Below the pieces are notes generated by a model, which ran no database searches, was not told the DNA's origin, and worked only from the letters and a program-made list of their open reading frames with translations. Below are positions 31,782 through 46,533 of a stretch of DNA of 64,000 nucleotides, one piece after another. Origin of the DNA: Eubacteriales bacterium (lineage in GTDB: Bacteria > Bacillota > Clostridia > Oscillospirales > CAG-382); the NCBI GenBank assembly GCA_045538555.1, contig JAZSRP010000049.1:129476-193475 (forward strand), written 5' to 3'. The position numbers and the translations under genes are program-made. Numbering within the stretch: position 1 is the stretch's first letter; every line of letters begins with the position of its first letter.

Positions 31782-32764
31782 ATCAGATATTGCAACCCCA
31801 AAGTTGCTCCCAGCATGATCAGGAAAAATATGGTGCCGGGGTTGAAAATAATTCTCTTTACTGCCTGCGTTGCGGTCACCAAGTAGCCGATCGCTTCGCC
31901 GCTGCGTCTCACAATACGTTTTCTTTCAAGCCCTCCGATGATATAGCAGACAACGGCAACCACTGAGATAACGATAAGAGCGCTGACTGCCAGCCCAAAA
32001 TAAATGGATGCCTCCTCCATCTCAAAAACCAGAATATATGATGCAGCAACAGAAAAAGCGTTGTTGATAAAATGAATCACGCTTCCCAAAAAAACTCTGC
32101 CCGTGCAGCAAAAGAGAATCCCGAGACATAGCCCAAAAACGGTTGCACCCGGCATTTTTGGAATATCTGTGTGCAAAGTACCAAAAAGCAGGGCAGACAC
32201 AATAATTGCGGGCCACTTGCCATAGGGGAGCAGGTTTTTGAGAATAATGCCCCGAAAAAGCCATTCCTCAAAAATTGCGGGAAGCAGTGCCACACTGACA
32301 AAGGTCAAAATAATCCCGCCTACTGATTGAGGTAGTGGAATTTCTGCCAAGGGCTGTTCCTCCAAAAGCTCCGAAAAAACCGCAGAGGAGATCAGTGCTA
32401 TGGCGTATGACAGACCCACCGTTCCAAAAACGTACAGGAGAGGAAACCGAGGTGCGGGTCTGAAATCGATCCTCGGCTTTTTGGGGTTGTTGCGAAACAT
32501 CATCAGAGCGATGGCGATGATGATTGAAAACATGAGGGTGTACGCAATCAGTTGGTATACGCCCATGGGCATTGCCGCTTTGTGATCGGCACCGATATTT
32601 TCGCAGATTAACTGAAAAACGGGATATCCAAAAAAGGATACGAGAATCTGGATCAGCAAAAAAATCCCGCAAACAGCAGCAGCGCGTGAAACGTTTTTTG
32701 AAAAACCCTTTTGCGTATGGATTTTTATATCATTTTCGGCAGGACATATAGTTGTCAAGTTCAT
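31778..32764 (-). CDS. CPBP (CAAX/Abi) family intramembrane glutamic endopeptidase
   Basis: Polytopic protein with EEWLFRG, FGTLH and HFINN motifs. Confidence 0.8.
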   Translation of the reverse strand: MNLTTICPAENDIKIHTQKGFSKNVSRAAAVCGIFLLIQILVSFFGYPVFQLICENIGADHKAAMPMGVYQLIAYTLMFSIIIAIALMMFRNNPKKPRIDFRPAPRFPLLYVFGTVGLSYAIALISSAVFSELLEEQPLAEIPLPQSVGGIILTFVSVALLPAIFEEWLFRGIILKNLLPYGKWPAIIVSALLFGTLHTDIPKMPGATVFGLCLGILFCCTGRVFLGSVIHFINNAFSVAASYILVFEMEEASIYFGLAVSALIVISVVAVVCYIIGGLERKRIVRRSGEAIGYLVTATQAVKRIIFNPGTIFFLIMLGATLGLQYLI

Positions 32765-33477
32765 TTTTTCTCCTGTGTGGCAGACGACATTGTTTCAAAG
32801 CAAAGCTTTGCAGCATCTGCGGAAATGTTGCATCCCAGAGACCACAACGGTATATTTGTCAGCATTTTTGATACAAGATCAAGAGTTGTGGCGGCAATTA
32901 GAGGATCCTTTGGAATGAGTATTTGATGCACCACACGCTCCAGAGCTGTTTTTGGGATCAACCGAGTTATTGTGTTCTCAGGTGACTGGTGCAAAAAGCA
33001 GATTCCGCCGAGAGGAGCGCTTGTGTTTGTGTTCATCATTTCTTTTCCCGCCCAAGGGGTGCCAAACGCATACAAAACTCCGTCCAAAAATCTCAATATC
33101 GGCTTGTCTCCATTGACAACAGTCATCCTGTTGCCCAACAACTCATGCCAAAGGCGGGTATGAGTAGTCTTGCCGGTTCCGCTCTTTGCGGAAAAAGCAT
33201 ATGCCACCCCGTCAACAGCCACCACCGAAGCATGCATAAGAAAAGCGTTGTAGGAGGGAAGCTTGAGTGCGATCTCACGGTATATGCAGACGCTCTCGAT
33301 GTATCCCATCTCCAGCTCAAAGTCATATAGCTTTTTTTCTTCGATCAGTTGCTGCCGAGTAACGCTGACGCAAAAATCCGGCTCCTCGTCCACTATGTAT
33401 CCGGAGCACTGTTTTTTTACGTATTCGTATGTATTGTTGATACCGATACGGATATCTGCTATTTTTATTACAAACAT
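32761..33477 (-). CDS. HPr-kinase-like P-loop protein (HprK C-terminal domain-like)
   Basis: HASVVAVDGVAYAFSAKSGTGKTTH resembles the HprK-type P-loop context (..G.a.l..G.SG.GKS). 238 aa. Its stop overlaps the CPBP start by 4 nt. Confidence 0.5.
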   Translation of the reverse strand: MFVIKIADIRIGINNTYEYVKKQCSGYIVDEEPDFCVSVTRQQLIEEKKLYDFELEMGYIESVCIYREIALKLPSYNAFLMHASVVAVDGVAYAFSAKSGTGKTTHTRLWHELLGNRMTVVNGDKPILRFLDGVLYAFGTPWAGKEMMNTNTSAPLGGICFLHQSPENTITRLIPKTALERVVHQILIPKDPLIAATTLDLVSKMLTNIPLWSLGCNISADAAKLCFETMSSATQEKK

Positions 33478-33572: not shown

Positions 33573-36152
33573 TCATCCCATTTTTTTGATGTTTTTGTCC
33601 ATCCAGGCGTACCTCATGTTGATCCAATCGGTCAGATAGTCAAGCTGCCCTTGGTAGGTGTCGATTTTTGCTGTCACTTTGTTTTCAAACTGAATCTTTT
33701 TTCCAAGCACCTTCCATCGTTCAAAATTTTGTTCAGCGGAGGGAGCAACTCGCACCTCCGCAGCGCTTACCGTTTCCAGTGCAACAGAGAGCATTTTTTC
33801 TCCGACCTGTTCCCATCTTTCCTTGAGACAGCTGATAAAATAAGGGTCTTTCAGCAGATAGTCCATGATGTTTTCGGGGATGTACATGTTGTATGAGTCC
33901 GTTTCGGAATTGCCGAGGCAGATCCATTCCTCGTAGTCAGAGGAATCCAGCCCCATGTTGCCAAAAGCGTAGTCAAAATCCCACGGGAGACAAAAAAACA
34001 GCTTTCCGTCAGATTTTTTCAACAGATAATCGCTTCTTCTGAAAATTCCGTCAAGATTGTAAGAAAATTCGTACAGCAAAAACCAGTCCACCAGCGAGGG
34101 CACGTCCAACAGCTCATGATAATCCCCGCCGCTCACAACGGCATCTTCCACTGCCTTTACGTAACCGCTGACATAATCAAACTGTTCTTTTGTCAGTACG
34201 TCTGAATCGGGGTTTTTTATTTCCACAAATCGAAACAGCTTGTGAGAAAACACGTTTCCGCCAAAATCCGTCTTTGTGTACTCGCCGCCTATCTCCAGCA
34301 AAAAGTCGGTGTCCGTCTCAGTGCTGTCCTCAACACCCGGCACTCTGCCCCGGTTTATCTCCGGCTGTTCACTGAGCTGATAGACACCATGATACTCTCC
34401 GTTGATATAGAGATCCACCATGTATGCAGATGGTATAAATACCATGTTGTCCAAAACATTGCCTACAGAATAGGCGATCTGATTTCTGATCAGTGAGCGG
34501 TCAACGTGGTTGGCAACCAGCACCCACCTTTTTGCTTTTTCAAGCCCAAAGAGGGATGTGCCTGATTCGAATTTGATTTTGTACGGCTTTTTTTCAAGTT
34601 TCCAGGAGGAGTGTCCTCTGCCCTGAATCCCGATGACGGAGTCATATATGCTGTCAAAATCAAAGTCCTCTCCGTAGTCAATGGAGAAATAAGCGTTGAT
34701 GTATCTGTCCTTTGTGTTAATTTTTGCACCGTTTTCAGTTTCGATTCTGATGATAGGAAGCCGAAAATCTTTTTTGTAAAATTCGATTTTATAACCTCTT
34801 GTACTGCCTGCCGTATCGGTGATCACAAAGTAATATTCTCCGTTGTCACGGATGATCTGGGATTTTGCTTCCTGTGTAAAAGATGCATCAATTTTCACCT
34901 TGTCCGGGTCCACATTATCAGTGAGCTCAAGCTCTGCATACAAGACGTTGCCTCTTGCAAAGGTGTCAAAAGTTCTTCCGGTGACTGAGTCGATCAGCAC
35001 GGCGGATTCAACGTCTGCGCTTCCGCTGCCTCCCATATATCTGTGAACAAAAACTCCGTTGTAGCTCCGAACCGAAAAATTGGTTTCAACTGTCTCAAAC
35101 TCGGGTTTTTCGTCTCCCGTGCAAAAAACGTCACAGGAAGGGGAGTCAAATATCAGCTTTTCACCCAAGGGGATGGCGTTTTTGGAGTAATCAACGGTGA
35201 TTTTTCCCTGCTCACTGGTGTCAAAAACAATATTGTCGGTTATTTTGACATTGCCCGAAAAAGTGACCGAAAGGGGACGGGCAACAGAAAAACCGCTTAG
35301 GCAAAAATCACCGCTCACTGTCAGCTTTTTTATATGGTCATCGATCCGAAGTGCCCCAAACCCGTCCGTAAGATATGCGATGTCATCGGCAGAATCCGCA
35401 AAAACTTCCTCTGTATCGATCTTTCTTCCGCACAGGGATCTTGCATGAACAAAAAACGGCCTTTCTTCCAAAAAGTTTCCAAAGGGAACGTCAACAAAAA
35501 TATCCCAACATGGTGTTTTGCATATCAGATTATCACATGTAAAATCGGAGGCAGAATTGTTTTTTATCTCCATTTTGCCTTCGTTGCGGCTTTCAAACAA
35601 CAGATCACCGTCAACGATCACCATACCTGTCTCCCAACAAAAGGGATGGTTGATCACAAGATCGCATGGATACTCAAACGGATCCGGAGTGTGCAGAGTA
35701 AGGTTTGTGTCAGCTGCAAGAGCCAGTCCGTGCTCAAATCCATATCTTCCTCCCGCAAAAAAGTCGGTTTTTTCTTCTTCGGATAGTGAGAGAGATACGA
35801 GATAATCTCCTGCTTTCAGCTCCCCAAGATCGATATTGCCTTTTCCGTTTTCAATGACGGTGTTACCTTGAAAAACAATTCCGTCTTGTCCCTCCAAGAG
35901 AACAAAGACAAAATAACTTGTGTCCTTTTTTGCTTTTATTTCAAGTGTTCCGCCGCCGGTGGCAGACAGGTTTGGGTTGTGACCGCTGTCGGAGCAAAAC
36001 ACGATCTGATCCTGTCCTGTTTTATATGGCTTGAAAACCACGGACATTCCTGTGACTTTTTGGCTGTTTATCAAAAAAAACAGTGATGCCGTAATTAAGA
36101 CTGTTATTAAAACTGATGTTAGCACCAAAGAGGTTTTTATTTTTCGCTTCAT
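33573..36152 (-). CDS. CotH family kinase-like protein with N-terminal signal anchor and beta-rich extension
   Basis: 859 aa. N-terminal TM segment (SLVLTSVLITVLITASLFFL). The C-terminal ~380 aa carry CotH-like motifs (KPYKIKF, WVLVANHVDRSLIRN, PWDFDYAFG). Confidence 0.78.
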   Translation of the reverse strand: MKRKIKTSLVLTSVLITVLITASLFFLINSQKVTGMSVVFKPYKTGQDQIVFCSDSGHNPNLSATGGGTLEIKAKKDTSYFVFVLLEGQDGIVFQGNTVIENGKGNIDLGELKAGDYLVSLSLSEEEKTDFFAGGRYGFEHGLALAADTNLTLHTPDPFEYPCDLVINHPFCWETGMVIVDGDLLFESRNEGKMEIKNNSASDFTCDNLICKTPCWDIFVDVPFGNFLEERPFFVHARSLCGRKIDTEEVFADSADDIAYLTDGFGALRIDDHIKKLTVSGDFCLSGFSVARPLSVTFSGNVKITDNIVFDTSEQGKITVDYSKNAIPLGEKLIFDSPSCDVFCTGDEKPEFETVETNFSVRSYNGVFVHRYMGGSGSADVESAVLIDSVTGRTFDTFARGNVLYAELELTDNVDPDKVKIDASFTQEAKSQIIRDNGEYYFVITDTAGSTRGYKIEFYKKDFRLPIIRIETENGAKINTKDRYINAYFSIDYGEDFDFDSIYDSVIGIQGRGHSSWKLEKKPYKIKFESGTSLFGLEKAKRWVLVANHVDRSLIRNQIAYSVGNVLDNMVFIPSAYMVDLYINGEYHGVYQLSEQPEINRGRVPGVEDSTETDTDFLLEIGGEYTKTDFGGNVFSHKLFRFVEIKNPDSDVLTKEQFDYVSGYVKAVEDAVVSGGDYHELLDVPSLVDWFLLYEFSYNLDGIFRRSDYLLKKSDGKLFFCLPWDFDYAFGNMGLDSSDYEEWICLGNSETDSYNMYIPENIMDYLLKDPYFISCLKERWEQVGEKMLSVALETVSAAEVRVAPSAEQNFERWKVLGKKIQFENKVTAKIDTYQGQLDYLTDWINMRYAWMDKNIKKMG

Positions 36153-36222: not shown

Positions 36223-36255
36223 TAAAAAAACTCCCTGCCTTTTTTGGGGCAGGGG
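36223..36255 (-). terminator. Rho-independent terminator of the TIR gene
   Basis: On the minus strand CCCTGCC-ccaaaaaa-GGCAGGG (36233-36254) followed by a T-run (36223-36230). Confidence 0.7.
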
Positions 36256-36262
36256 AAAAAGA

Positions 36263-37264
36263 TCATTCTTTTGTGGTGGGGGAGAGCGCTTGGCAGATCT
36301 GCTCCAAAACCTTGCCCTCCGATGCAAAAATATTTTGATATTTGTCCAAAAACATCTCGTATCCGTACGGAAATTCCGCACTGTCAAGCCGCACTGTGAT
36401 GGGGTGCAGATCTCTGCGCCTGATTGCTCCGTTTATCTCGTCCTCCACACGCTCGGATGCAGCGGAATGCTCGGACGAAAAGAGCAAAAAGTTTTTGCAT
36501 CCTTTTATTCTTTCGCCCAGCATAATGAGCCAGTTGTTTCCTTTGTGGATCCCCTCATCGTACCAGACTCTGTATCCTTCTCTCTGCAGTGCTGAGAGAT
36601 ATGGAATCACCTTTTTGTCGTCCTTGTGGGAGTAGCTGACAAAAACGTAGTCAAGAGTACCTGTGTAAGGAAGATCCACGTACAGACGGTTGTTGAGCCG
36701 CTTTTGCAGCTCCTCCGCTTCCTTGATGATAAGGTCAAACTGGCTGTAAAGAGCGTCAAACCCAAATTCTCCGCCTTCGCTATATATAACAGTTTTGTCA
36801 AAAACATTCATGTTTGCAAGAAACGTGCTTCTCAGCATGGCTCCTTTTTTCAGACGTTTATTTACCTGAATTTCGTCTTTTACGTATTTGCGTGTCATTG
36901 TTTCAAGACTTGTGCTGTCAATGTACATATATATGGGCACCACGTATTCGCCAAAGGAATCCACAATCTCCCGCACAAAATCCAGACTGTCTGGGGACAT
37001 GGTGATAAGTGCGTTTGACCTGCCTCTCACCGCATCAAGGATCTGGGATTTGTAAAAACCCGTTTTTCCGCCGTGGATGGAATAAACAAAATCGCATTGC
37101 ATCACGGTTTTTTCGTCATGGTTTTTGTAGGTGTCATAGTGATACGACAGAGAATCCTCCGGGAGATAATTGTATTTTTGAATCACAGAGTAACCTTTGT
37201 TGGAAAAATACTCTCTTGATTTCTTTGCAACCTCAAGGGTTCCGCCCACCAAAACTATCAGCAT
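36263..37264 (-). CDS. TIR domain protein with degenerate guanylate-kinase-like N-terminal domain
   Basis: The C-terminal TIR (approx 36338-36652) has DYVFVSYSHKDD..., GYRVWYDEG, FLLFSS, SERVEDEI. The start is set to the ATG at 37264 (GAGG RBS 9 nt upstream) because an extended -10 (TGGTATGAT) abuts the track start at 37297. Confidence 0.8.
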   Translation of the reverse strand: MLIVLVGGTLEVAKKSREYFSNKGYSVIQKYNYLPEDSLSYHYDTYKNHDEKTVMQCDFVYSIHGGKTGFYKSQILDAVRGRSNALITMSPDSLDFVREIVDSFGEYVVPIYMYIDSTSLETMTRKYVKDEIQVNKRLKKGAMLRSTFLANMNVFDKTVIYSEGGEFGFDALYSQFDLIIKEAEELQKRLNNRLYVDLPYTGTLDYVFVSYSHKDDKKVIPYLSALQREGYRVWYDEGIHKGNNWLIMLGERIKGCKNFLLFSSEHSAASERVEDEINGAIRRRDLHPITVRLDSAEFPYGYEMFLDKYQNIFASEGKVLEQICQALSPTTKE

Positions 37265-37297
37265 ATCAAAAAACCTCGCAAATTTTATGATAAACAT

Positions 37298-37326
37298 ATC
37301 ATACCATGTTCGTTAAAAAAAAGCAA
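37298..37326 (-). promoter_or_regulatory. Promoter of the TIR gene
   Basis: On the minus strand: TTGCTT (37321-37326), 17 nt, TATGAT (37298-37303) preceded by TGn. Confidence 0.5.
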
Positions 37327-37409: not shown

Positions 37410-40400
37410 ATGAATAATCCCGAGAATCAAAAGTACAACGGAATACGAATGTTTATATCCTCTACCTTTTCGGATATGACCTCTGAACGCCAGCATTTCA
37501 ACGATATAATCGTACCAAAGCTGAGGGCCCTTTGCCGTGACAAGGGAGTTTCGTTTTTTTCTGTGGATCTGCGCTGGGGTGTAACAGAAGAGGATATCGA
37601 AAACGACCGCCTTGTGTCTCTGTGCCTTGAGGAGGTAGACAGGTGCAGACCGTTCTTTTTGGGCATAATCGGCAATCGTTACGGATCACGAATGACACAG
37701 GTGTCTCCTGCGCTTGCGGAGCAATATCCCTGGCTTGCAGACAGTCTCGGTGCCAGCTACACCGAGCTTGAGATACTGTACAATCTGTCCAAAAACGACG
37801 GTCACAAAAATTCACTGTTTCTTTTCAAAAATTGCACTGAGCCCCCCTCTGCTGAGGATACACATAGCATTGCACAGCTCAAAGAAAAAATACTGAAAAC
37901 CGCCAAGGATGAAGTGGCGGAGTACAGTGAGATCTCCGAGTTTGAGTATATTATAGTTTCCCGTTTTTCGACTTGGCTTGATGAGATTTATGGTGATACG
38001 GACGTTCATCTTGAGCGAGAAAAGCTCTTTTCACACAGCATTTCGCTTCATTTTGACTGCAACGAAAAAGAGGTAAAAAGCATTTCATCGTGTATACGTA
38101 TGACCGATTCCACACTGATTCTGCACGGAAACGGGCCTCTGGGAAAAACGTCCCTGCTCAACAGAGTTGCTGCGGAGTTCCCCGCAAGAATCGTCATCAA
38201 CTGTCGTGCGGATGAGTCCAACACGGAGTGGCATTACGTTGCGTTTTCCATTGTAAAAAAACTGATGGAGCATCCGGACGTCACAGTTTATGATTATTCC
38301 TGGTTTGAAGAAAACAGCCATCTTTGGGACAGCGGCCGCATTTTGACAGACATTGAGGAGGAGGCGCTGAATCAAAATTTTGTAAATCTGATCAAAGAGC
38401 TTCACTGCCGGCAAGAGACACTGCTTGTCATCAATGATATTGAATATATCCACGGAAGCCGTACAAAATACCTTCAGTGGATACCCCCTGTCACGGGAAA
38501 TAAATTCCGTATTGTGTGTTCTTCCAACGATGCCGATATTATAAACAGTGCGGAGATCATGGGGTGGCAGTGTCTTGAGATGCGGCAAATGGAAATATCT
38601 TCAGCCCGCCATATTTTGGAATCGGAGCTGAAGAAGTACGGAAAAAACTCAAAAGACGTTTTGCCGCTGCTGGATTCTGACCTTGCCGGATATCCGGGAT
38701 ATCTCATCTCGGCAATCGATTTTCTCAACTGCTTCGGCAGCTTTGATACGGTAGGTGAGATATCAAAAAAGCTGTCGGAGTGCAGTACTTTTACGGAGTA
38801 TTATGACCTGGTTTTTGATTACATAAAAAGTACGCACGGGAAAGAATTTTTTGATCTTTTGCTTACTGTTTTGGCGGCGGTTTCAATCTCGGTGCTTCCG
38901 TTGGAGGAATCGGGCAGATTCTTTGTGCTGACTGACCTGACAAGCTGCGACAAGTTCCAATGGACAGCCGTCAGCCGTTTGATGAGCGCTTTGCGCTTTG
39001 AAACAATCGGCGGAGTTCTTCCCACGGCGTTGCGAGATCATGTCCTGCAGGTGGTGCTGCAATCAAAAAAAGATGAGATCAACATTTCATTGGGCAGATA
39101 CTTTTTGTCTGTTTCCGACTACAAAAAGATCGGAACCGATGCCCGTGATCTGAGACTTCAAAAAAATGCATTGATCCATTTTGTTGCCGGCAGAGATGAA
39201 AATTCGGTTTCGGCAGTGCTCGGAAATACCGATGTGATGATGAACCTTTGCGCTTATGAAAAGGATGCTGTAAGAGCGGCTCTGGCATTTTTGATGCTTG
39301 AAACCAACCGCAACGTATCAAAAATTATTGCTGACAACATGGAGTTCCTTGATCGAAACCATTCAGGGCTTCCCGTTCAGGCAAAGGACGCTTTTTGCAA
39401 TCTCGACGCCATATATATGGACCTTTCATTGCAAAAAGAAATTGATCGTATCAATCAAGTCATTGACTCCGCAGCTCAAAACAAATTTGTTCCTTTCCTG
39501 GAAATCGAAAGAGTTGGAAAAGAGATGTTTTTGGGCGAGGAGATAACCATCGCTGCGGAAGAGAATGGCACGGAATATGCTCTCAATCTGTTGGAAAAAT
39601 ATAGGTCAATGGAGGATGACACTCCCCTCAACCGAGCCATGTTTGCAAACCTTAGGTCCGAGCTGCTATGGAAACACAGACAGGTGGGATCAATGGCGGA
39701 TTTTGAAGATTCTATCCGTCTTTCCACTGAGGCGGGAAGCATCAGTTTTATATTGTTTGCATACAAACGAAAGATAGATTTGCTTATACGTGAAAAGGAG
39801 TATGGGGAGGCAGTCAATCTTTCTTCAAAATGTGAAAAATGGTCTCGCGATCTGGGCTACGTGTTTTTTACTCTCTCGTTCTCAAACAGCATTGCCGTGT
39901 GTCTTTACCGCACAGGAAATATCGATGAATCGTTGGAAATATCCAAAAAATACTACGATATTTGCAAAAAGCACGGGATCACCCAACATGCGTTTACGTT
40001 TCAGCGGGGTATTGCCAACGCCCTCAATATCGGAGGAAAATACAAAGAGTGCATCAAGTTTTGCGAGGATTTTTTGAAAAACAAAAACATTGAATTCTAT
40101 CAGGAAGTGGCAATCGTTGATGTTCTCAAAGGTGCGTATTGCAACGACAACAGACCGGAAAAAGCTATACCGCTGTTGACAAAAATGGTTGAGGATCCAC
40201 GTCTTGACGGATCAAAGAGAATGCTGTTTTCGTGTACACTGGCGAGTATTTTGATCGCTCGGCAGGGCTTTTCAAAAAAAGCAGAGGTGCTTCTCAACGA
40301 TACGTTTTCAATTGCCCAAAACAATCGCAACTTCAGGTTGATACATTTTTTGCTCAATCGTCTTTACAAGGATTTGTGGATATCAAAAGATGGGATTCGG

Positions 40401-41597
40401 TTTTGGAACCGTTGGAAAACCACGCCGGGATACAACGAGTTTCTCACAGACAGCGCAAGCTTTGATGACGAGCAGTTTTCCAACGGAGCTGATTTTTTTG
40501 CAGTAAACAATCTCTCGGTTGCAAAAGCAAATGTTCAAAAGCTGAAAAGCGATTATCGTATTGCATTTGAACGAAAAAAATATGCAGAATCCGCCGAGAT
40601 TGCATACCGTCTTGCTATTCTGACGGCAGAAAACGAGAGCAAAGAGTCGATAGGTATGATAGTGGATGCTTTGGAATCTGCCCGACTGAGCAATGATCCA
40701 AAAATGTTCCGAGAGTATTTGACCTATGGAATAAAGCGTCTCATGCACTGCGGAAAACCAACGGATGAGGAATTGGCAAATCTCCTTGACCTCTACCTTG
40801 ATCCCCAATGCAAGGCATTTTTGAAAAACTGGGAAAAAGCAGGTGAGTACCTGGAGGACATAGACAGTGAGCCGATGAACTGCCTTGTGAGTATAATAAC
40901 GGCAAAAGACGTTCCAAACGAGCTCAAACTTATCTGCCTTGCGGATCTGTCGACGCTTATCATTGGCTGCCTTTCTCCGGCTGAACTGAATGATTTGATC
41001 GATATCGCCTCGCAAGAGGGTTTGGAATCAAATTATCTAAACACGCTATTTGCTTCCAAAACGGTACAGGTTTTTGAGAAACATGATGCTGTGTACGGAG
41101 AGGATTCAGTAAACATAATGAAAAAAACGGAAAAAAGGTTTTTGTCATTCATTTCGTCATCGGGGCGGTTTGAAATTGTGGGAGGATTCGGCAGACAGGA
41201 AAATCCCATTGATCCGAACATGGTATCGGAGAGCTTTACCGTTGAGCCAAAATGCGATTACGATCACCTCGGCCGTGTTCTTGCCACTGTTGGTGTTGCG
41301 GAATCTGCATCAAATGAAAAAATCGATCTTTGGTGCATCACTGACATCGTATTTTCCACGTTGACTCCCGAGCTTATGCAACAGGTTTGGGAGCTGATCG
41401 GCAACACTCCTCTGCCTCAGTATCAGGGGAAAGATTTTTGCCATGTCAATATCCAGCCCAACGAGATGCTCAGATGCATGGGAATGATATCTCTGAACTC
41501 AAAATTGGAGCTTCCCATGGTGTATAGGCTGTATTCTGACCTTGCAATCGATCTGATCCAAAAAGCAGATGCACTGGCAAAAAATCTTGATGGCTGA
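37410..41597 (+). CDS. DUF4062 (TIR-like) / STAND P-loop NTPase / helical (TPR-like) repeat protein, 1395 aa
   Basis: aa 12-92 (37443-37685) FISSTFSDM..ERQ...VDLRWGVTEED...CLEEVDRCRPFFLGIIGNRYGS matches the DUF4062 signature. Walker A is GNGPLGKTS (38127-38153) and Walker B is LLVINDIE (38421-38444). More than 700 aa of helical repeats follow, then a ~230-aa non-repeat C-terminus. Confidence 0.85.
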   Translation: MNNPENQKYNGIRMFISSTFSDMTSERQHFNDIIVPKLRALCRDKGVSFFSVDLRWGVTEEDIENDRLVSLCLEEVDRCRPFFLGIIGNRYGSRMTQVSPALAEQYPWLADSLGASYTELEILYNLSKNDGHKNSLFLFKNCTEPPSAEDTHSIAQLKEKILKTAKDEVAEYSEISEFEYIIVSRFSTWLDEIYGDTDVHLEREKLFSHSISLHFDCNEKEVKSISSCIRMTDSTLILHGNGPLGKTSLLNRVAAEFPARIVINCRADESNTEWHYVAFSIVKKLMEHPDVTVYDYSWFEENSHLWDSGRILTDIEEEALNQNFVNLIKELHCRQETLLVINDIEYIHGSRTKYLQWIPPVTGNKFRIVCSSNDADIINSAEIMGWQCLEMRQMEISSARHILESELKKYGKNSKDVLPLLDSDLAGYPGYLISAIDFLNCFGSFDTVGEISKKLSECSTFTEYYDLVFDYIKSTHGKEFFDLLLTVLAAVSISVLPLEESGRFFVLTDLTSCDKFQWTAVSRLMSALRFETIGGVLPTALRDHVLQVVLQSKKDEINISLGRYFLSVSDYKKIGTDARDLRLQKNALIHFVAGRDENSVSAVLGNTDVMMNLCAYEKDAVRAALAFLMLETNRNVSKIIADNMEFLDRNHSGLPVQAKDAFCNLDAIYMDLSLQKEIDRINQVIDSAAQNKFVPFLEIERVGKEMFLGEEITIAAEENGTEYALNLLEKYRSMEDDTPLNRAMFANLRSELLWKHRQVGSMADFEDSIRLSTEAGSISFILFAYKRKIDLLIREKEYGEAVNLSSKCEKWSRDLGYVFFTLSFSNSIAVCLYRTGNIDESLEISKKYYDICKKHGITQHAFTFQRGIANALNIGGKYKECIKFCEDFLKNKNIEFYQEVAIVDVLKGAYCNDNRPEKAIPLLTKMVEDPRLDGSKRMLFSCTLASILIARQGFSKKAEVLLNDTFSIAQNNRNFRLIHFLLNRLYKDLWISKDGIRFWNRWKTTPGYNEFLTDSASFDDEQFSNGADFFAVNNLSVAKANVQKLKSDYRIAFERKKYAESAEIAYRLAILTAENESKESIGMIVDALESARLSNDPKMFREYLTYGIKRLMHCGKPTDEELANLLDLYLDPQCKAFLKNWEKAGEYLEDIDSEPMNCLVSIITAKDVPNELKLICLADLSTLIIGCLSPAELNDLIDIASQEGLESNYLNTLFASKTVQVFEKHDAVYGEDSVNIMKKTEKRFLSFISSSGRFEIVGGFGRQENPIDPNMVSESFTVEPKCDYDHLGRVLATVGVAESASNEKIDLWCITDIVFSTLTPELMQQVWELIGNTPLPQYQGKDFCHVNIQPNEMLRCMGMISLNSKLELPMVYRLYSDLAIDLIQKADALAKNLDG

Positions 41598-43902: not shown

Positions 43903-46533
43903 TTACTTGTTGTCCTTAATTGCAGCCTGTGCAGCGGCAAGGCGAGCGATGGGAACGCGGAAAGGAGAGCAGGACACGTAGTCCAGTCCCAACTGGTGGC
44001 AGAACTCCACAGAAGTGGGGTCGCCGCCGTGCTCACCGCAGATACCCACGTGGAGATCGGGGTTGACGGGACGGCCGAGAGAAATGGCCATACCCATGAG
44101 TTTGCCTACGCCGGTCTGGTCAAGACGGGCAAAGGGATCGTTTTCAAATATCTTTGCATCGTAGTATGCATCAAGGAATTTGCCTGCATCATCACGGCTG
44201 AATCCGTATGTCATCTGTGTCAGGTCGTTGGTGCCAAAGCAGAAGAAATCAGCGTTTGCGGCAATATCATCTGCTGTGAGACAAGCACTGGGAATCTCAA
44301 TCATAGTGCCCACCTCGTACTCAAGAGCAGTGCCGGCAGCGGCAATTTCTGCATTTGCAGTCTCAACAACAACGTTTTTGACGTACAGGAACTCTTTTAC
44401 GTCGCCAACCAGAGGGATCATGATCTCGGGCTTGACGTTCCAGTCGGGATGTGCGGCTTTTACGTTGATTGCTGCACGGATAACGGCAGCGGTCTGCATT
44501 TTTGCGATCTCGGGGTAGGTGACGGAGAGACGGCATCCTCTGTGGCCCATCATGGGGTTGAACTCATGGAGTGAAGTAATGATGGCTTTGATGGTCTCAA
44601 CCTTTTTGCCCTGCGCGTCTGCAAGAAGTTTGATGTCCGCTTCCTCGGTGGGCACAAACTCATGGAGAGGAGGATCAAGGAATCTGATGCAAACGGGAGT
44701 GCCCTCAAGCGCCTCATACAACGCTTCAAAGTCTGCCTGCTGCATGGGAAGAATCTTTGCAAGGGCGACTTCTCTTTCCTTGACGGTCTCGGAGCAGATC
44801 ATCTCACGGAAAGCGTCGATTCTGCCCTCACCAAAGAACATGTGCTCAGTACGGCACAGTCCGATGCCCTCTGCGCCCAGCTCACGTGCCTTTTTGGCAT
44901 CTGCGGGGGTGTCGGCATTGGTGCGTACCTTGAGAGTTCTGAAGCTGTCAGCCCATTGCATGATGGTATCAAAATTGCCGGAGATCTCAGCATCAACAGT
45001 GGGGATGATACCGTCATAGATTCTGCCGGTGGAGCCGTCAATGGAAATATAGTCACCCTCGGTGAAGGTTTTTCCTGCCAGCTCAAACTTTTTGTTCTTC
45101 TCATCCATTGTGATGTCGCCGCAACCGGAAACACAGCATTTGCCCATGCCGCGTGCTACGACTGCTGCGTGAGAGGTCATGCCGCCTCTTACGGTGAGGA
45201 TACCCTGAGCGGCTTTCATGCCCTCGATATCCTCGGGAGAGGTCTCAAGTCTGACAAGAATAACTTTTTCGCCTCTTGCAGACCATTCTTTTGCGTCCTC
45301 GGCAGTAAACACTACCTTGCCGCATGCTGCTCCGGGAGAAGCACCCAGGCCGTTGCCTGCTGCAGTTGCGGATTTGAGCACCTTGGTGTCAAACTGGGGA
45401 TGGAGCAGGGTATCAAGGTTTCTGGGGTCAATCATGAGAACTGCTTCTTCTTTGGTCTTGTGTCCCTCTTTTACCAGATCGACAGCGATCTGAAGAGCTG
45501 CCTGAGCGGTTCTCTTGCCGTTTCTGGTCTGGAGCATAAAGAGCTCTTCGTTTTCGATAGAAAACTCCATGTCCTGCATATCGTGATAGTGGTTTTCCAA
45601 AATGTCGCAAACCTCAAGGAATCTCTTGTACACCTTGGGGAACTTGTCTGCCATCTCAACGATGGGCATGGGGGTGCGCACGCCGGCGACAACGTCCTCG
45701 CCCTGAGCATTGGTGAGAAACTCACCCATGAGCTTTTTCTCGCCGGTGGCGGGATCGCGGGTAAATGCAACACCGGTACCGCAGTTGTCGCCCATGTTGC
45801 CAAATACCATTGCCTGAACGTTTACAGCTGTGCCCCAGCTGTAGGGAATATCGTTGTCACGACGGTAAACGTTTGCACGGGGGTTGTCCCAGGAACGGAA
45901 CACTGCCTTGACAGCGCCGATAAGCTGCTCTTTGGGATCAGAGGGGAAGTCCTTGCCGATGGTTGCCTTGTACTCGGCTTTGAACTGCTCTGCAAGCTCC
46001 TTGAGATCATCAGCGGTGAGATCAACGTCAAGGGTCACGCCCTTTTGTTTTTTCATCTTGTCGATGAGCTCTTCAAAGTATTTCTTGCCGACTTCCATAA
46101 CAACGTCGGAATACATTTGAATAAATCTTCTGTAGCAGTCATAAGCCCATCTGGGGTTACCGGATTTTTTTGCCATAACCTCAACGACCTCTTCGTTGAT
46201 ACCGAGGTTGAGGATGGTGTCCATCATGCCGGGCATAGAAGCTCTTGCGCCGGAGCGGACGGAGACGAGAAGCGGATTTTCAAGATCACCAAACTTTTTG
46301 CCGGTGATCTGCTCCAACTTTTCGATATATTCCATGATCTGGGACTGAATATCCTCATTGATCATTTTACCGTCGGTGTAATATTGGGTGCACGCCTCGG
46401 TAGTGATAGTGAACCCCTGGGGAACAGGAAGCCCGAGATTGGTCATCTCGGCCAAGTTCGCACCCTTGCCGCCGAGAAGCTCTCTCATCTTGCCATTGCC
46501 TTCGGAAAAGAGATAGACATACTTCTTTGTCAT
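43903..46533 (-). CDS. ppdK: Pyruvate, phosphate dikinase
   Basis: 876 aa. GGKGANLAEM ATP-grasp N-terminus, the GGMTSHAAVVARG phosphohistidine motif and a C-terminal PEP-utilising TIM barrel. Confidence 0.93.
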   Translation of the reverse strand: MTKKYVYLFSEGNGKMRELLGGKGANLAEMTNLGLPVPQGFTITTEACTQYYTDGKMINEDIQSQIMEYIEKLEQITGKKFGDLENPLLVSVRSGARASMPGMMDTILNLGINEEVVEVMAKKSGNPRWAYDCYRRFIQMYSDVVMEVGKKYFEELIDKMKKQKGVTLDVDLTADDLKELAEQFKAEYKATIGKDFPSDPKEQLIGAVKAVFRSWDNPRANVYRRDNDIPYSWGTAVNVQAMVFGNMGDNCGTGVAFTRDPATGEKKLMGEFLTNAQGEDVVAGVRTPMPIVEMADKFPKVYKRFLEVCDILENHYHDMQDMEFSIENEELFMLQTRNGKRTAQAALQIAVDLVKEGHKTKEEAVLMIDPRNLDTLLHPQFDTKVLKSATAAGNGLGASPGAACGKVVFTAEDAKEWSARGEKVILVRLETSPEDIEGMKAAQGILTVRGGMTSHAAVVARGMGKCCVSGCGDITMDEKNKKFELAGKTFTEGDYISIDGSTGRIYDGIIPTVDAEISGNFDTIMQWADSFRTLKVRTNADTPADAKKARELGAEGIGLCRTEHMFFGEGRIDAFREMICSETVKEREVALAKILPMQQADFEALYEALEGTPVCIRFLDPPLHEFVPTEEADIKLLADAQGKKVETIKAIITSLHEFNPMMGHRGCRLSVTYPEIAKMQTAAVIRAAINVKAAHPDWNVKPEIMIPLVGDVKEFLYVKNVVVETANAEIAAAGTALEYEVGTMIEIPSACLTADDIAANADFFCFGTNDLTQMTYGFSRDDAGKFLDAYYDAKIFENDPFARLDQTGVGKLMGMAISLGRPVNPDLHVGICGEHGGDPTSVEFCHQLGLDYVSCSPFRVPIARLAAAQAAIKDNK

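What the first reader, a model, noticed from the sequence alone, without database searches (positions are those of the whole stretch)
36263..37264. TIR fused to a guanylate-kinase-like domain with a destroyed P-loop
From the RBS-supported ATG at 37264 the protein starts MLIVLVGGTLEVAKK, where guanylate kinases have hhhhGPSGxGK[ST]; the Gly-Lys-Ser/Thr is missing. Further on, HGGKTGFYKSQILDAVRGRSNALITMSPDSLDFVREI...VVPIYMYIDSTSLETMTRKY parallels by eye the GK layout (..nYYGT..v......g..vildid.qG...vk....v.IFi.PPS.eeL..R). The last ~110 aa are the TIR. The motif S-E-R-V-E-D-E-I aligns with the SxWCxxEL helix that carries the catalytic Glu of NADase TIRs. A pseudo-kinase GK-like module on a TIR would be an unusual sensor or adaptor, binding a nucleotide or a peptide as in MAGUK GK domains.
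Basis: partly seen in the sequence, partly recalled or inferred. Interest (0 to 1): 0.7.

Follow-up and report, generated by a model that had tools for sequence, protein, structure and literature searches.

The report
Dead guanylate-kinase domain fused to TIR
This gene encodes a probable NAD-cleaving TIR enzyme whose front half is a guanylate kinase that has lost its catalytic sites; the fusion has not been described and probably acts as the sensor or switch of a bacterial immune-type protein.

Summary
The ORF 36263..37264 (-) is a real 333-aa gene with its own promoter-like site, ribosome-binding site and terminator. About 50 full-length homologues were found, all from metagenomes or metagenome-assembled genomes; the few labelled ones are Clostridia.

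Residues ~207-320 are a TIR_2 domain. Its invariant Glu276 aligns with the catalytic Glu of NADase TIRs. Residues 1-193 give a confident AlphaFold model (pLDDT 90.6), and its top 50 PDB matches are all guanylate kinases. A profile comparison links it to P-loop-intact relatives that pass Pfam Guanylate_kin (99.5% probability, E 1.4e-22).

Both kinase sites are gone. GxxGxGK[ST] has become G-x-T-L-x-V-G/A-x (only 3 of 94 family members fit the Walker A pattern), and TTRxxR has become Y-N-Y-x-P-x. K30, Y61, G69 and R137 are still invariant or nearly so.

The same dead-kinase module also sits in front of a TIR-helical-TIR arrangement and a domain with an HEPN-like motif. That argues it is a sensor or regulator placed ahead of toxic effectors.

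The neighbouring STAND protein is a DUF4062 (NIR)-type, Avs-like protein with its own NADase-type head. It is adjacent in only 2 of 13 loci, so it is probably not an obligate partner. Function is inferred, not shown. This is a new variant of a known kind and of moderate interest.

The parts
36263..37264 (-). Complete CDS (333 aa plus stop) of the pseudo-guanylate-kinase-TIR protein
   Evidence: ORF list. The identical 333-aa protein P0001 is in the public collection, with 49 full-length homologues. The start is conserved in all aligned homologues.
36686..37264 (-). N-terminal guanylate-kinase-fold domain, residues 1-193, catalytically degenerate
   Evidence: AF2 pLDDT 90.6. Foldseek PDB top 50 are all guanylate kinases. 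hhalign to P-loop-intact GK-like proteins gives probability 99.5% and E 1.4e-22. There is no direct Pfam hit.
37214..37246 (-). Remnant of the Walker A / P-loop, residues 7-17 (GGTLEVAKKSR)
   Evidence: The Walker Gly, Lys and Thr positions align to V12, A/G13 and x14. Only 3 of 94 family N-domains fit G.{4}GK[ST], and K14 is kept in 34%. In the model helix alpha-1 starts at residue 10, leaving a 3-residue loop.
37157..37177 (-). Remnant of the GMP-binding K/S-x-TTRxxR motif, residues 30-36 (KYNYLPE); K30 is invariant and both Arg are lost
   Evidence: Alignments with intact relatives and with human GUK1; column counts.
36854..36856 (-). Codon of R137, kept in 93 of 94 family members; it aligns with the conserved LID-region Arg of guanylate kinases
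36647..36685 (-). Inter-domain linker, residues 194-206, with the invariant P199, Y200 and G202 (YVDLPYTG). It is the most conserved stretch of the protein.
   Evidence: Invariant columns. Mean pairwise identity is 60%, against 43% for the N-domain and 51% for the TIR. In the full-length model it is a loop after the long helix 169-193.
36305..36646 (-). TIR domain, residues ~207-320
   Evidence: Pfam TIR_2 E 3.6e-17 and ThsB_TIR E 1.4e-5. PDB sequence hits are to TIR-APAZ, AbTIR, Cat1 and SARM1.
36437..36439 (-). Codon GAG of Glu276, the putative catalytic glutamate of the TIR
   Evidence: Read from the sequence. Invariant in 37 of 37 and in 93 of 95 TIR domains. It aligns with the Glu of AbTIR (NYELDG) and Cat1 (WDELEQ).
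36233..36254 (-). Intrinsic-terminator-like hairpin and T-run directly after the stop codon
   Evidence: 7 pairs, 6 of them G-C, followed by AGTTTTTTTA.
37274..37316 (-). Promoter-like site (TTAACG-18-TATCAT, 37316..37287) and GAGG ribosome-binding site (37277..37274)
   Evidence: and the sequence. These are consensus matches only.
37410..41597 (+). Divergently transcribed neighbour: a DUF4062 (NIR)-STAND-TPR protein of 1395 aa, Avs-like. It is probably an independent defence gene of the same island.
   Evidence: Pfam DUF4062 E 1.7e-11, weak AAA_16 and TPR_12. DUF4062 is reported as a TIR-like NADase effector of Avs-type proteins. A related DUF4062-STAND lies next to a homologue only in L017.

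Best explanation
The gene encodes a two-domain protein. Its C-terminal half is a TIR domain that looks catalytically competent. It is predicted to cleave NAD+, either simply depleting it or making an ADP-ribose-derived product.

Its N-terminal half descends from a guanylate-kinase-family P-loop kinase but has lost the Walker A loop and the GMP phosphate-binding arginines, so it cannot be a kinase. It keeps the three-part kinase fold (core, NMP-binding lobe, LID). It also keeps a few invariant residues: K30, Y61 and G69 align to NMP-site motif positions, R137 to a LID-region Arg, and R17 sits on helix alpha-1.

I propose that this dead kinase is the input module. It would bind a trigger, either a nucleotide-like small molecule or a foreign or host protein, in the remodelled cleft. 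Through the long helix and the invariant LPYxG linker it would then release or promote TIR self-association. By analogy with other sensor-TIR fusions (TIR-SAVED, TIR-STING, Cat1), self-association switches on NADase activity. The outcome would be an abortive-infection-type or stress response.

The protein most likely works as a stand-alone, one-gene unit that tends to sit in defence islands.

Shown here: the fold, the homology, the loss of kinase motifs, the conserved Glu, the swapping of effector domains on the same N-domain, and the variable neighbourhoods. Inferred: ligand binding, oligomerisation, NADase activity and an immune role.
For: - Fold: the AF2 model is confident (pLDDT 90.6). Foldseek returns only guanylate kinases in the top 50 of the PDB (again with the full-length model). 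Viral guanylate kinases lead the BFVD hits, with zeta-toxin and other P-loop proteins only among the weaker ones.
- Homology: the family profile finds P-loop-intact relatives that pass the Pfam Guanylate_kin cutoff (P0131, P0163, P0170). hhalign gives 99.5% and E 1.4e-22 over 180 columns. A mixed profile hits human GUK1 at E 2e-10.
- Loss of catalysis: only 3 of 94 fit the Walker A pattern and none has TTRxxR, while M1, G7, K30, Y61 and G69 are 100% conserved and R137 is 99%.
- TIR competence: TIR_2 at E 3.6e-17. E276 aligns to the Glu of AbTIR and Cat1 and is kept in 93 of 95.
- Modularity: among 94 N-domains, 69 are followed by one TIR, 17 belong to 600-830-aa proteins (the four checked have TIR, a helical region and a second TIR_2 stretch), and 5 are followed by a different C-domain with an invariant RNxAAH motif (HEPN-like).
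- Autonomy: the gene has its own promoter-like site and terminator. Neighbours differ among 13 independent loci.
- Defence-like company: nine of the 13 loci have defence- or conflict-type genes within 10 kb. These are a DUF4062-STAND, Card1-type nucleases, a DUF4011 helicase, other TIR genes, GAP1/DO-GTPase genes and a Tubulin_2 protein.
Against: - No experiment exists for any member, and four literature searches found no description.
- No PADLOC model covers the protein beyond weak TIR-only hits.
- Four of the 13 loci are flanked only by housekeeping genes. Two genomes share PPDK synteny (window and L015), which fits vertical inheritance as well as a mobile defence gene.
- The relative position of the two domains is not predicted with confidence (full-length pTM 0.57).
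- The tryptophan that usually precedes the catalytic Glu in NADase TIRs (WxxxE) is Val here.
- No ligand can be named.
Confidence: 0.5

Rival explanations
1. Thoeris-like signal generator. The TIR would make an NAD-derived second messenger after the pseudo-kinase domain senses infection. A separately encoded effector would read that signal, for example the large proteins with a Card1-type PD-(D/E)xK nuclease domain seen next to some homologues.
For: Weak ThsB-type hits: Pfam ThsB_TIR E 1.4e-5 and PADLOC ThsB E 1.2e-5. Homologous 950-1500-aa proteins ending in a Card1-type nuclease lie directly upstream in L003 and L010, nearby in L017, and about 9 kb away in L001, often with a conserved 94-aa RyR protein.
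Against: The window has no such protein anywhere in its 64 kb (tblastn), and eight other loci have none. No ThsA-type partner (SIR2, SLOG or Macro domain) was seen in any annotated locus. The same N-domain is also fused to a non-TIR, HEPN-like domain, which fits an effector better than a signal synthase.
Confidence: 0.2
2. Two-gene system with the adjacent DUF4062-STAND protein. The STAND would sense a phage protein and oligomerise. Its TIR-like head would then recruit or template the TIR of the pseudo-kinase protein (adaptor or amplifier model).
For: The two genes are divergent and share a 145-nt control region in the window. A second, independent locus (L017) has a DUF4062-STAND directly upstream on the same strand; the N-termini are 27% identical (E 3e-8).
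Against: The STAND is adjacent in only 2 of 13 loci. L015 shares the PPDK flank with the window but has no STAND. DUF4062-Avs proteins are reported to defend on their own, using their own NADase head.
Confidence: 0.1
3. Not immunity. The protein would be a housekeeping or regulatory factor of gut Clostridia, in which the dead kinase senses a guanine-nucleotide-related metabolite or binds a cellular partner. The TIR would tune NAD+ levels or act only as an interaction module.
For: Housekeeping flanks in L013, L014, L015 and L019. The gene is shared at 58-70% identity among related gut and rumen Clostridia, with partial synteny. The closest TIR-only relatives carry PASTA, RDD, FHA or LRR domains.
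Against: The Glu is invariant. The effector is swapped for an HEPN-like domain. Conflict-system genes are frequent neighbours, including a run of five TIR-type genes in L021.
Confidence: 0.15
4. The N-domain is still a working nucleotide-binding enzyme, with a Walker A shifted by one residue (G8-x4-G/A13-K14).
For: The window protein has G8...A13-K14-K15-S16. Three family members fit G.{4}GK[ST] in that register.
Against: Across the family K14 is kept in 34%, G8 in 21%, and position 15 is rarely Ser or Thr. Bulky T9, L10 and V12 sit inside the would-be loop. The model turns residues 10-22 into a helix. The NMP-site arginines are also lost.
Confidence: 0.05

Closest known systems
Sensor-fused bacterial TIR NADases (TIR-SAVED of CBASS, TIR-STING, CARF-TIR Cat1, TIR-APAZ of SPARTA)
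   Same: A TIR with the catalytic Glu is joined in one chain to a ligand- or partner-binding domain. The PDB sequence hits of this TIR are to exactly these proteins (8qlo TIR-APAZ, 9mud Cat1, AbTIR).
   Different: The input domain here is a degenerate guanylate-kinase fold, not SAVED, STING, CARF or APAZ. No cyclase, CRISPR or Argonaute partner is nearby. The order is sensor-N, TIR-C.
Thoeris ThsB
   Same: A small cytoplasmic TIR protein with an extra domain; weak ThsB HMM hits.
   Different: No ThsA-type gene is adjacent in the window or in any related locus. The hits cover only the TIR.
MAGUK guanylate-kinase-like (GK) domains of animals (PSD-95, DLG, MPP)
   Same: A guanylate-kinase fold that has lost catalysis and been recruited as a binding module. 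MAGUK GK domains appear among the profile and fold matches.
   Different: MAGUK GK domains keep the GMP-site Arg and Tyr cluster to bind phospho-Ser peptides (my knowledge of that family). Here those Arg positions are Y33/L34 and variable residues. This is an independent bacterial origin and is fused to an enzyme domain.
P-loop-intact guanylate-kinase-like proteins found here (e.g. P0170, P0163; tandem forms P0131, P0132; P0153, which carries a CAP12/Pycsar-type TIR-like C-domain)
   Same: They are the nearest sequence relatives (hhalign 99.5%). They share K30, Y61, G69, R137 and the F-D motif. P0153 shows that a kinase-plus-TIR-like architecture also exists with a live P-loop.
   Different: They keep GxSGSGK[ST] and TTRxxR, so they are presumably active kinases or NTPases. 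They are themselves uncharacterised.
DUF4062 (NIR)-STAND Avs-type proteins (the neighbouring gene)
   Same: Proteins with a reported NAD+-depleting effector head, found in defence islands.
   Different: A different protein family and architecture. It is listed only because it is adjacent.

Membership tests
Guanylate kinase family (Pfam PF00625; enzyme EC 2.7.4.8) | Three-part fold: P-loop core sheet, NMP-binding lobe, helical LID | tested here: met
   AF2 pLDDT 90.6 with element order b1-a1-b2-hairpin-a-b-a-b-a-a-b-a. The PDB top 50 are all guanylate kinases, TM up to 0.71.
Guanylate kinase family (Pfam PF00625; enzyme EC 2.7.4.8) | Direct match to the Pfam Guanylate_kin model above its gathering score | tested here: not met
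   No Pfam hit for residues 1-210 even at E <= 1. No PDB sequence hit for this region with the family profile.
Guanylate kinase family (Pfam PF00625; enzyme EC 2.7.4.8) | Common ancestry shown by profile comparison with proteins that do pass PF00625 | tested here: met
   P0131, P0163 and P0170 pass the cutoff. hhalign of A2 against A5 gives 99.5% and E 1.4e-22. The mixed profile hits GUK1 at E 2e-10.
Guanylate kinase family (Pfam PF00625; enzyme EC 2.7.4.8) | Walker A motif GxxGxGK[ST] | tested here: not met
   The sequence is GGTLEVAKK. The Walker Lys aligns to A/G13. Only 3 of 94 fit the pattern.
Guanylate kinase family (Pfam PF00625; enzyme EC 2.7.4.8) | GMP-binding residues (S/K-x-TTRxxR arginines, Tyr of the YG motif) | tested here: not met
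   TTRxxR is replaced by YNYLPE, and the Tyr of YG by T/V68.
Guanylate kinase family (Pfam PF00625; enzyme EC 2.7.4.8) | Phosphotransfer from ATP to GMP | not testable with these tools
   Needs an enzyme assay. Predicted to be absent.
TIR-domain NADases | TIR domain recognised by curated models | tested here: met
   TIR_2 at 63.4 bits against a cutoff of 28; ThsB_TIR at 25.9 against 21.2.
TIR-domain NADases | Catalytic glutamate in the alpha-C helix | tested here: met
   E276 aligns to the Glu of AbTIR, Cat1, 7uxr and 8qlo. Invariant in 37 of 37 and kept in 93 of 95.
TIR-domain NADases | NAD+ cleavage on self-association | not testable with these tools
   Needs a biochemical assay.
Thoeris (ThsB plus ThsA) | Adjacent ThsA-type effector (SIR2, SLOG or Macro/TM) | tested here: not met
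   The window neighbours are a CotH protein and a DUF4062-STAND. None was seen in 12 related loci.
Thoeris (ThsB plus ThsA) | Match to ThsB models | tested here: inconclusive
   Best PADLOC ThsB hit E 1.2e-5 at 22.9 bits, over the TIR region only.
MAGUK-type non-catalytic GK domain | GK fold without kinase activity, used as a binding module | tested here: inconclusive
   The fold and the motif loss are met. The binding function is untested.
MAGUK-type non-catalytic GK domain | Retained GMP-site Arg and Tyr cluster that binds phospho-peptides | tested here: not met
   Both Arg positions are non-conserved and are not Arg.
Two-gene system with DUF4062-STAND | Conserved adjacency across homologues | tested here: not met
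   Adjacent in the window and L017 only, 2 of 13 loci. L015 is syntenic but lacks it.

The most novel reading that the evidence does not exclude
The dead guanylate kinase is a molecular bait or nucleotide sensor. It would mimic the host or phage guanylate/dNMP kinase to capture a phage factor that targets that enzyme, or it would bind a guanine-derived alarm or phage-specific nucleotide in its remodelled cleft. That event would license a family of interchangeable suicide effectors (TIR, TIR-TIR, HEPN-like). This would be a previously unrecognised one-protein immune sensor class built on a pseudoenzyme. It would parallel, by independent evolution, the conversion of guanylate kinase into the MAGUK binding domain in animals.
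Probability: 0.2. Interest if true: 0.8.

Novelty: new variant of a known kind. Interest (0 to 1): 0.58.

Why it matters
TIR enzymes are central to immunity in bacteria, plants and animals, and what varies between systems is how they are switched on.

This is a family of 94 full-length N-domains among sequence clusters, from metagenomes and assembled genomes; the few labelled ones are Clostridia from animal guts. In it the switch is a guanylate kinase that has lost both substrate sites but keeps a small set of invariant residues at former substrate-site and LID positions and a very conserved linker.

If the module proves to be the trigger-binding part, it would:
- add a new sensor type to bacterial immunity;
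- give a clean bacterial example of a pseudoenzyme recruited for sensing;
- offer a small (333 aa), single-gene system in which the coupling between ligand binding and TIR activation can be studied.

The occurrence of the same module in front of an HEPN-like domain suggests a portable regulatory cassette.

Tried and rejected
- A direct Pfam, NCBIfam or PADLOC assignment of the N-domain gave nothing.
- A PDB sequence search with the family profile found TIR hits only.
- The search for related loci with the N-domain alignment failed because no stretch was conserved enough. The single-protein scan of GTDB species genomes found only two loci, since its exact-peptide patterns are insensitive. I draw no conclusion about phyletic spread from it.
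- A conserved operon partner was rejected. The upstream genes in L013 and L014 are a methionine synthase and a glycerate kinase, named by my reading of their translations; no family search was run on them.
- The upstream ATG at 37297 as the start was rejected, because homologues start at the ML of 37264 and the promoter-like -10 lies downstream of 37297.
- A Card1/RyR partner in the window was rejected: tblastn found no hit in the 64 kb.
- The MAGUK-style phosphopeptide site was rejected as a specific model because the arginines are absent.
- HEPN identity of the alternative C-domain could not be confirmed with Pfam or PADLOC. It rests on the invariant RNxAAH motif only.
- Four literature searches for this architecture found nothing (one search likewise).
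- GC content gives no clear island signal: 0.42-0.46 across the two genes against 0.39-0.53 nearby.
Full report
**1. The gene**

The minus-strand ORF 36263..37297 contains two in-frame ATGs. The second one, at 37264, is the real start.
- The public protein collection holds the identical 333-aa product (P0001).
- All 37 aligned homologues begin at the corresponding Met (ML/MF).
- A GAGG sits 9 nt upstream.
- A promoter-like site (37316..37287) would start transcription downstream of the first ATG.

A GC-rich hairpin followed by a T-run (36254..36233) comes straight after the stop codon. The gene therefore looks monocistronic and is separated from the CotH-type gene downstream. The 145-nt region upstream is shared with a divergently transcribed 1395-aa gene, which has a near-consensus promoter-like site (TTGACG-17-TATAAT).

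**2. The C-terminal half is a TIR that looks catalytically competent**

Pfam TIR_2 matches residues 207-295 in 333-aa numbering (218-306 of the longer ORF) at E 3.6e-17, well above the curated cutoff.

A profile of the family finds solved TIR NADases: TIR-APAZ 8qlo, the TIR-domain entry 7uxr, Cat1 and AbTIR. In those alignments the invariant Glu276 lies on the Glu of AbTIR (..NYELDG) and Cat1 (..WDELEQ).

Glu276 is invariant in 37 of 37 full-length homologues and present in 93 of 95 TIR domains of the wider set. The Trp that usually sits three residues before it is Val here. Whether that matters cannot be said from sequence.

**3. The N-terminal half is a guanylate-kinase fold**

No curated model recognises residues 1-200. 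With a 28-sequence alignment, AlphaFold2 gives a confident model (pLDDT 90.6, pTM 0.87).

Foldseek against the PDB returns guanylate kinases in all 50 top places (best E 1.2e-7, TM 0.71, 10-16% identity). The full-length model gives the same result. In BFVD, viral guanylate kinases lead the hits; zeta-toxin and other P-loop proteins appear only among the weaker ones.

Sequence evidence agrees independently.
- An exhaustive profile search finds 194 representatives at E <= 1e-3.
- Among the weaker hits are 180-200-aa and tandem 380-aa proteins with intact GxSGSGK[ST] and TTRxxR motifs.
- Three of these pass the Pfam Guanylate_kin gathering score.
- hhalign between the two groups gives 99.5% probability and E 1.4e-22 over 180 columns.
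- A mixed profile reaches human GUK1 at E 2e-10 over its full length, and also MAGUK GK domains.

**4. The kinase machinery is gone, but not everything**

In all alignments the Walker A string G-x-S-G-x-G-K-T corresponds to G7-G-T-L-E-V-A13-K14.
- The Walker Lys position is Gly (68%) or Ala (21%) in the family.
- The Ser/Thr position is variable.
- Large residues (T9, L10, V12) fill the former loop.
- The model shortens the loop to three residues and starts helix alpha-1 at residue 10.
- Only 3 of 94 family N-domains fit G.{4}GK[ST], in a register shifted by one.

The NMP-site motif K/S-x-T-T-R-x-x-R has become K30-Y-N-Y-L-P-E, and none of the 94 keeps the arginines. The Tyr of the YG motif is Thr or Val.

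What survives:

| Residue | Conservation | Aligns with |
|---|---|---|
| M1, G7 | 100% | — |
| K30 | 100% | Ser37 of GUK1 in the alignment |
| Y61 | 100% | — |
| G69 | 100% | Gly of the YG motif |
| R137 | 99% | conserved LID-region Arg, KRL in GUK1 |
| F155 | 97% | — |
| Q175 | 96% | — |
| R17 | 86% | — |

K30, Y61, G69, R137 and the F155-D156 pair are also invariant or nearly so in the P-loop-intact relatives. By alignment, K30, Y61 and G69 fall at NMP-site motif positions, R137 at a LID-region Arg, and R17 on helix alpha-1. I read this as a remodelled binding cleft, but it is an inference: I could not inspect coordinates.

The 13-residue linker (YVDLPYTG...) is the most conserved part of the whole protein, at 60% mean pairwise identity against 43% and 51% for the two domains. 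That suggests it has a role in coupling them.

**5. The module is portable**

Among 94 full-length N-domains:
- 69 are followed by a single TIR (300-370 aa);
- 17 belong to 600-830-aa proteins. Pfam was run on four of them, and each gave two TIR_2 stretches, consistent with TIR, a helical region and a second TIR;
- 5 are followed by an unrelated ~320-aa domain whose invariant residues include R-x-x-Y-R-N-x-A-A-H;
- 3 are short.

That R-x4-H signature is typical of HEPN RNases. This rests on my knowledge of the motif and was not confirmed by any library.

One input domain in front of interchangeable toxic outputs is the usual design of bacterial conflict proteins. It is the strongest argument that the dead kinase is a sensor or regulator.

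A P-loop-intact relative (P0153) is fused to a CAP12/Pycsar-type TIR-like domain. A kinase-plus-TIR-like arrangement may therefore predate the loss of catalysis.

**6. Neighbourhoods**

I looked at 13 independent loci.

| Locus | What lies nearby |
|---|---|
| Window | DUF4062-STAND adjacent, divergent |
| L017 | DUF4062-STAND adjacent upstream, plus a Card1-type nuclease protein, a RyR protein and a DUF7659 protein |
| L003 | PP2C, a kinase-Card1-nuclease giant directly upstream, RyR directly downstream |
| L010 | Card1-type protein directly upstream; homologue of the L017 DUF7659 protein downstream |
| L001 | RyR and a Card1-type protein ~9 kb away |
| L007 | DUF4011 helicase 3 kb away |
| L016 | Large Tubulin_2 protein |
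| L021 | Run of five TIR-type genes |
| L023 | GAP1/DO-GTPase genes |
| L013, L014, L015, L019 | Housekeeping genes only |

L015 shares the pyruvate-phosphate-dikinase flank with the window but lacks the STAND. No partner is universal. The gene often sits among conflict-type genes, which fits a self-contained unit that lives in defence islands.

The recurrent Card1-type and RyR genes in the more divergent branch (40-47% identity to the window protein) keep a Thoeris-like two-component reading alive for that branch.

**7. The STAND neighbour**

Its N-terminus is DUF4062 (E 1.7e-11), followed by a weak AAA_16/STAND match and TPR-like repeats.

Three 2026 preprints report DUF4062 (renamed NIR) as a TIR-like NADase. 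It is the effector head of some Avs proteins and of the Swarozyc, Vulcan, Vesta and Evangelion systems, which defend on their own.

The neighbour is therefore most simply a complete defence protein in its own right.

**8. Comparison with what is known**

In how it works, the closest analogues are sensor-TIR fusions such as TIR-SAVED, TIR-STING and Cat1. In evolutionary logic, the closest is the MAGUK GK domain, a guanylate kinase turned into a binding module.

It is not a member of the enzyme family in the functional sense, because the defining catalytic motifs were tested and are absent. It is not a MAGUK-type phosphopeptide binder either, because the arginines are absent. It is not a Thoeris ThsB, because there is no ThsA. 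It is a member of the TIR superfamily.

No paper describing a guanylate-kinase-like or pseudokinase domain on a bacterial TIR was found.

**9. Verdict**

The function is inferred.

My preferred model, at about 0.5, is a stand-alone NAD+-cleaving effector gated by a pseudo-guanylate-kinase sensor. The rivals are:
- a Thoeris-like signal generator (0.2);
- a non-immune regulator (0.15);
- a STAND-dependent pair (0.1);
- a still-active NTPase (0.05).

Novelty: a new variant of a known kind. Interest is moderate to good, because the architecture is undescribed, small, widespread in metagenome samples and directly testable. However, new input domains on TIR effectors are by now a familiar theme.

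Noticed in passing
window 37410-41597 (+): A 1395-aa protein with an N-terminal DUF4062 (NIR) domain, a STAND-type ATPase (weak AAA_16) and TPR-like repeats. This is an Avs-like architecture whose head domain was reported in 2026 preprints as a TIR-like NADase. I did not verify its catalytic Glu.
   Followed up: partly
window 33573-36152 (-): An 859-aa protein with a hydrophobic N-terminus and a C-terminal CotH kinase domain (E 1.3e-42), directly downstream of the TIR gene but separated from it by a terminator.
   Followed up: partly
window 32761-33477 (-): A 238-aa ORF with a Walker-A-like SGTGKTT string and no Pfam match at E <= 0.01.
   Followed up: no
proteins P0109, P0110, P0111, P0113 (not in the window): The same dead guanylate-kinase module is fused to an unrelated ~320-aa C-domain. 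Its invariant residues include TSALENELK and RxxYRNxAAH, an HEPN-like Rx4H signature. No library recognises the domain.
   Followed up: partly
L003 5501-9982 and 11030-11314; L010 5123-7981; L017 811-4210; L001 20009-21041: Homologous 950-1500-aa proteins ending in a Card1-type PD-(D/E)xK nuclease recur next to or near pseudo-GK-TIR genes; one also carries a protein-kinase domain and a PP2C neighbour. In L001, L003 and L017 they come with a well conserved 94-aa RyR-domain protein (61-69% identity). This may be an undescribed multi-gene system.
   Followed up: partly
L010 9115-12615 (-) and L017 8076-11501 (-): Homologous 1141-1166-aa proteins (DUF7659 in one) lie convergent, directly downstream of the pseudo-GK-TIR gene, in two independent loci.
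   Followed up: no
L021 617-9179: Five genes in a row on one strand carry TIR or TIR-like domains: pseudo-GK-TIR, CAP12-PCTIR_TIR, a faint TIR_2 hit plus DUF6273, TIR plus Sel1, and TIR. An acetyltransferase and a PfkB kinase are interspersed.
   Followed up: no
L023 1712-7095: GAP1 and DO-GTPase2 genes (a GTPase-centred conflict system) lie just upstream of a pseudo-GK-TIR homologue.
   Followed up: no
proteins P0131, P0132, P0147, P0150, P0153 (not in the window): Uncharacterised guanylate-kinase-like proteins with intact P-loops. Some are tandem two-domain forms in which only the first copy keeps Walker A. One form is fused to a CAP12/Pycsar-type TIR-like domain.
   Followed up: partly
window 43903-46533 (-) and L015 63-2879: Pyruvate phosphate dikinase flanks the pseudo-GK-TIR gene in both the window and a 64%-identical homologue's contig. 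The STAND and HTH-membrane genes are present only in the window, as if inserted between the two.
   Followed up: partly
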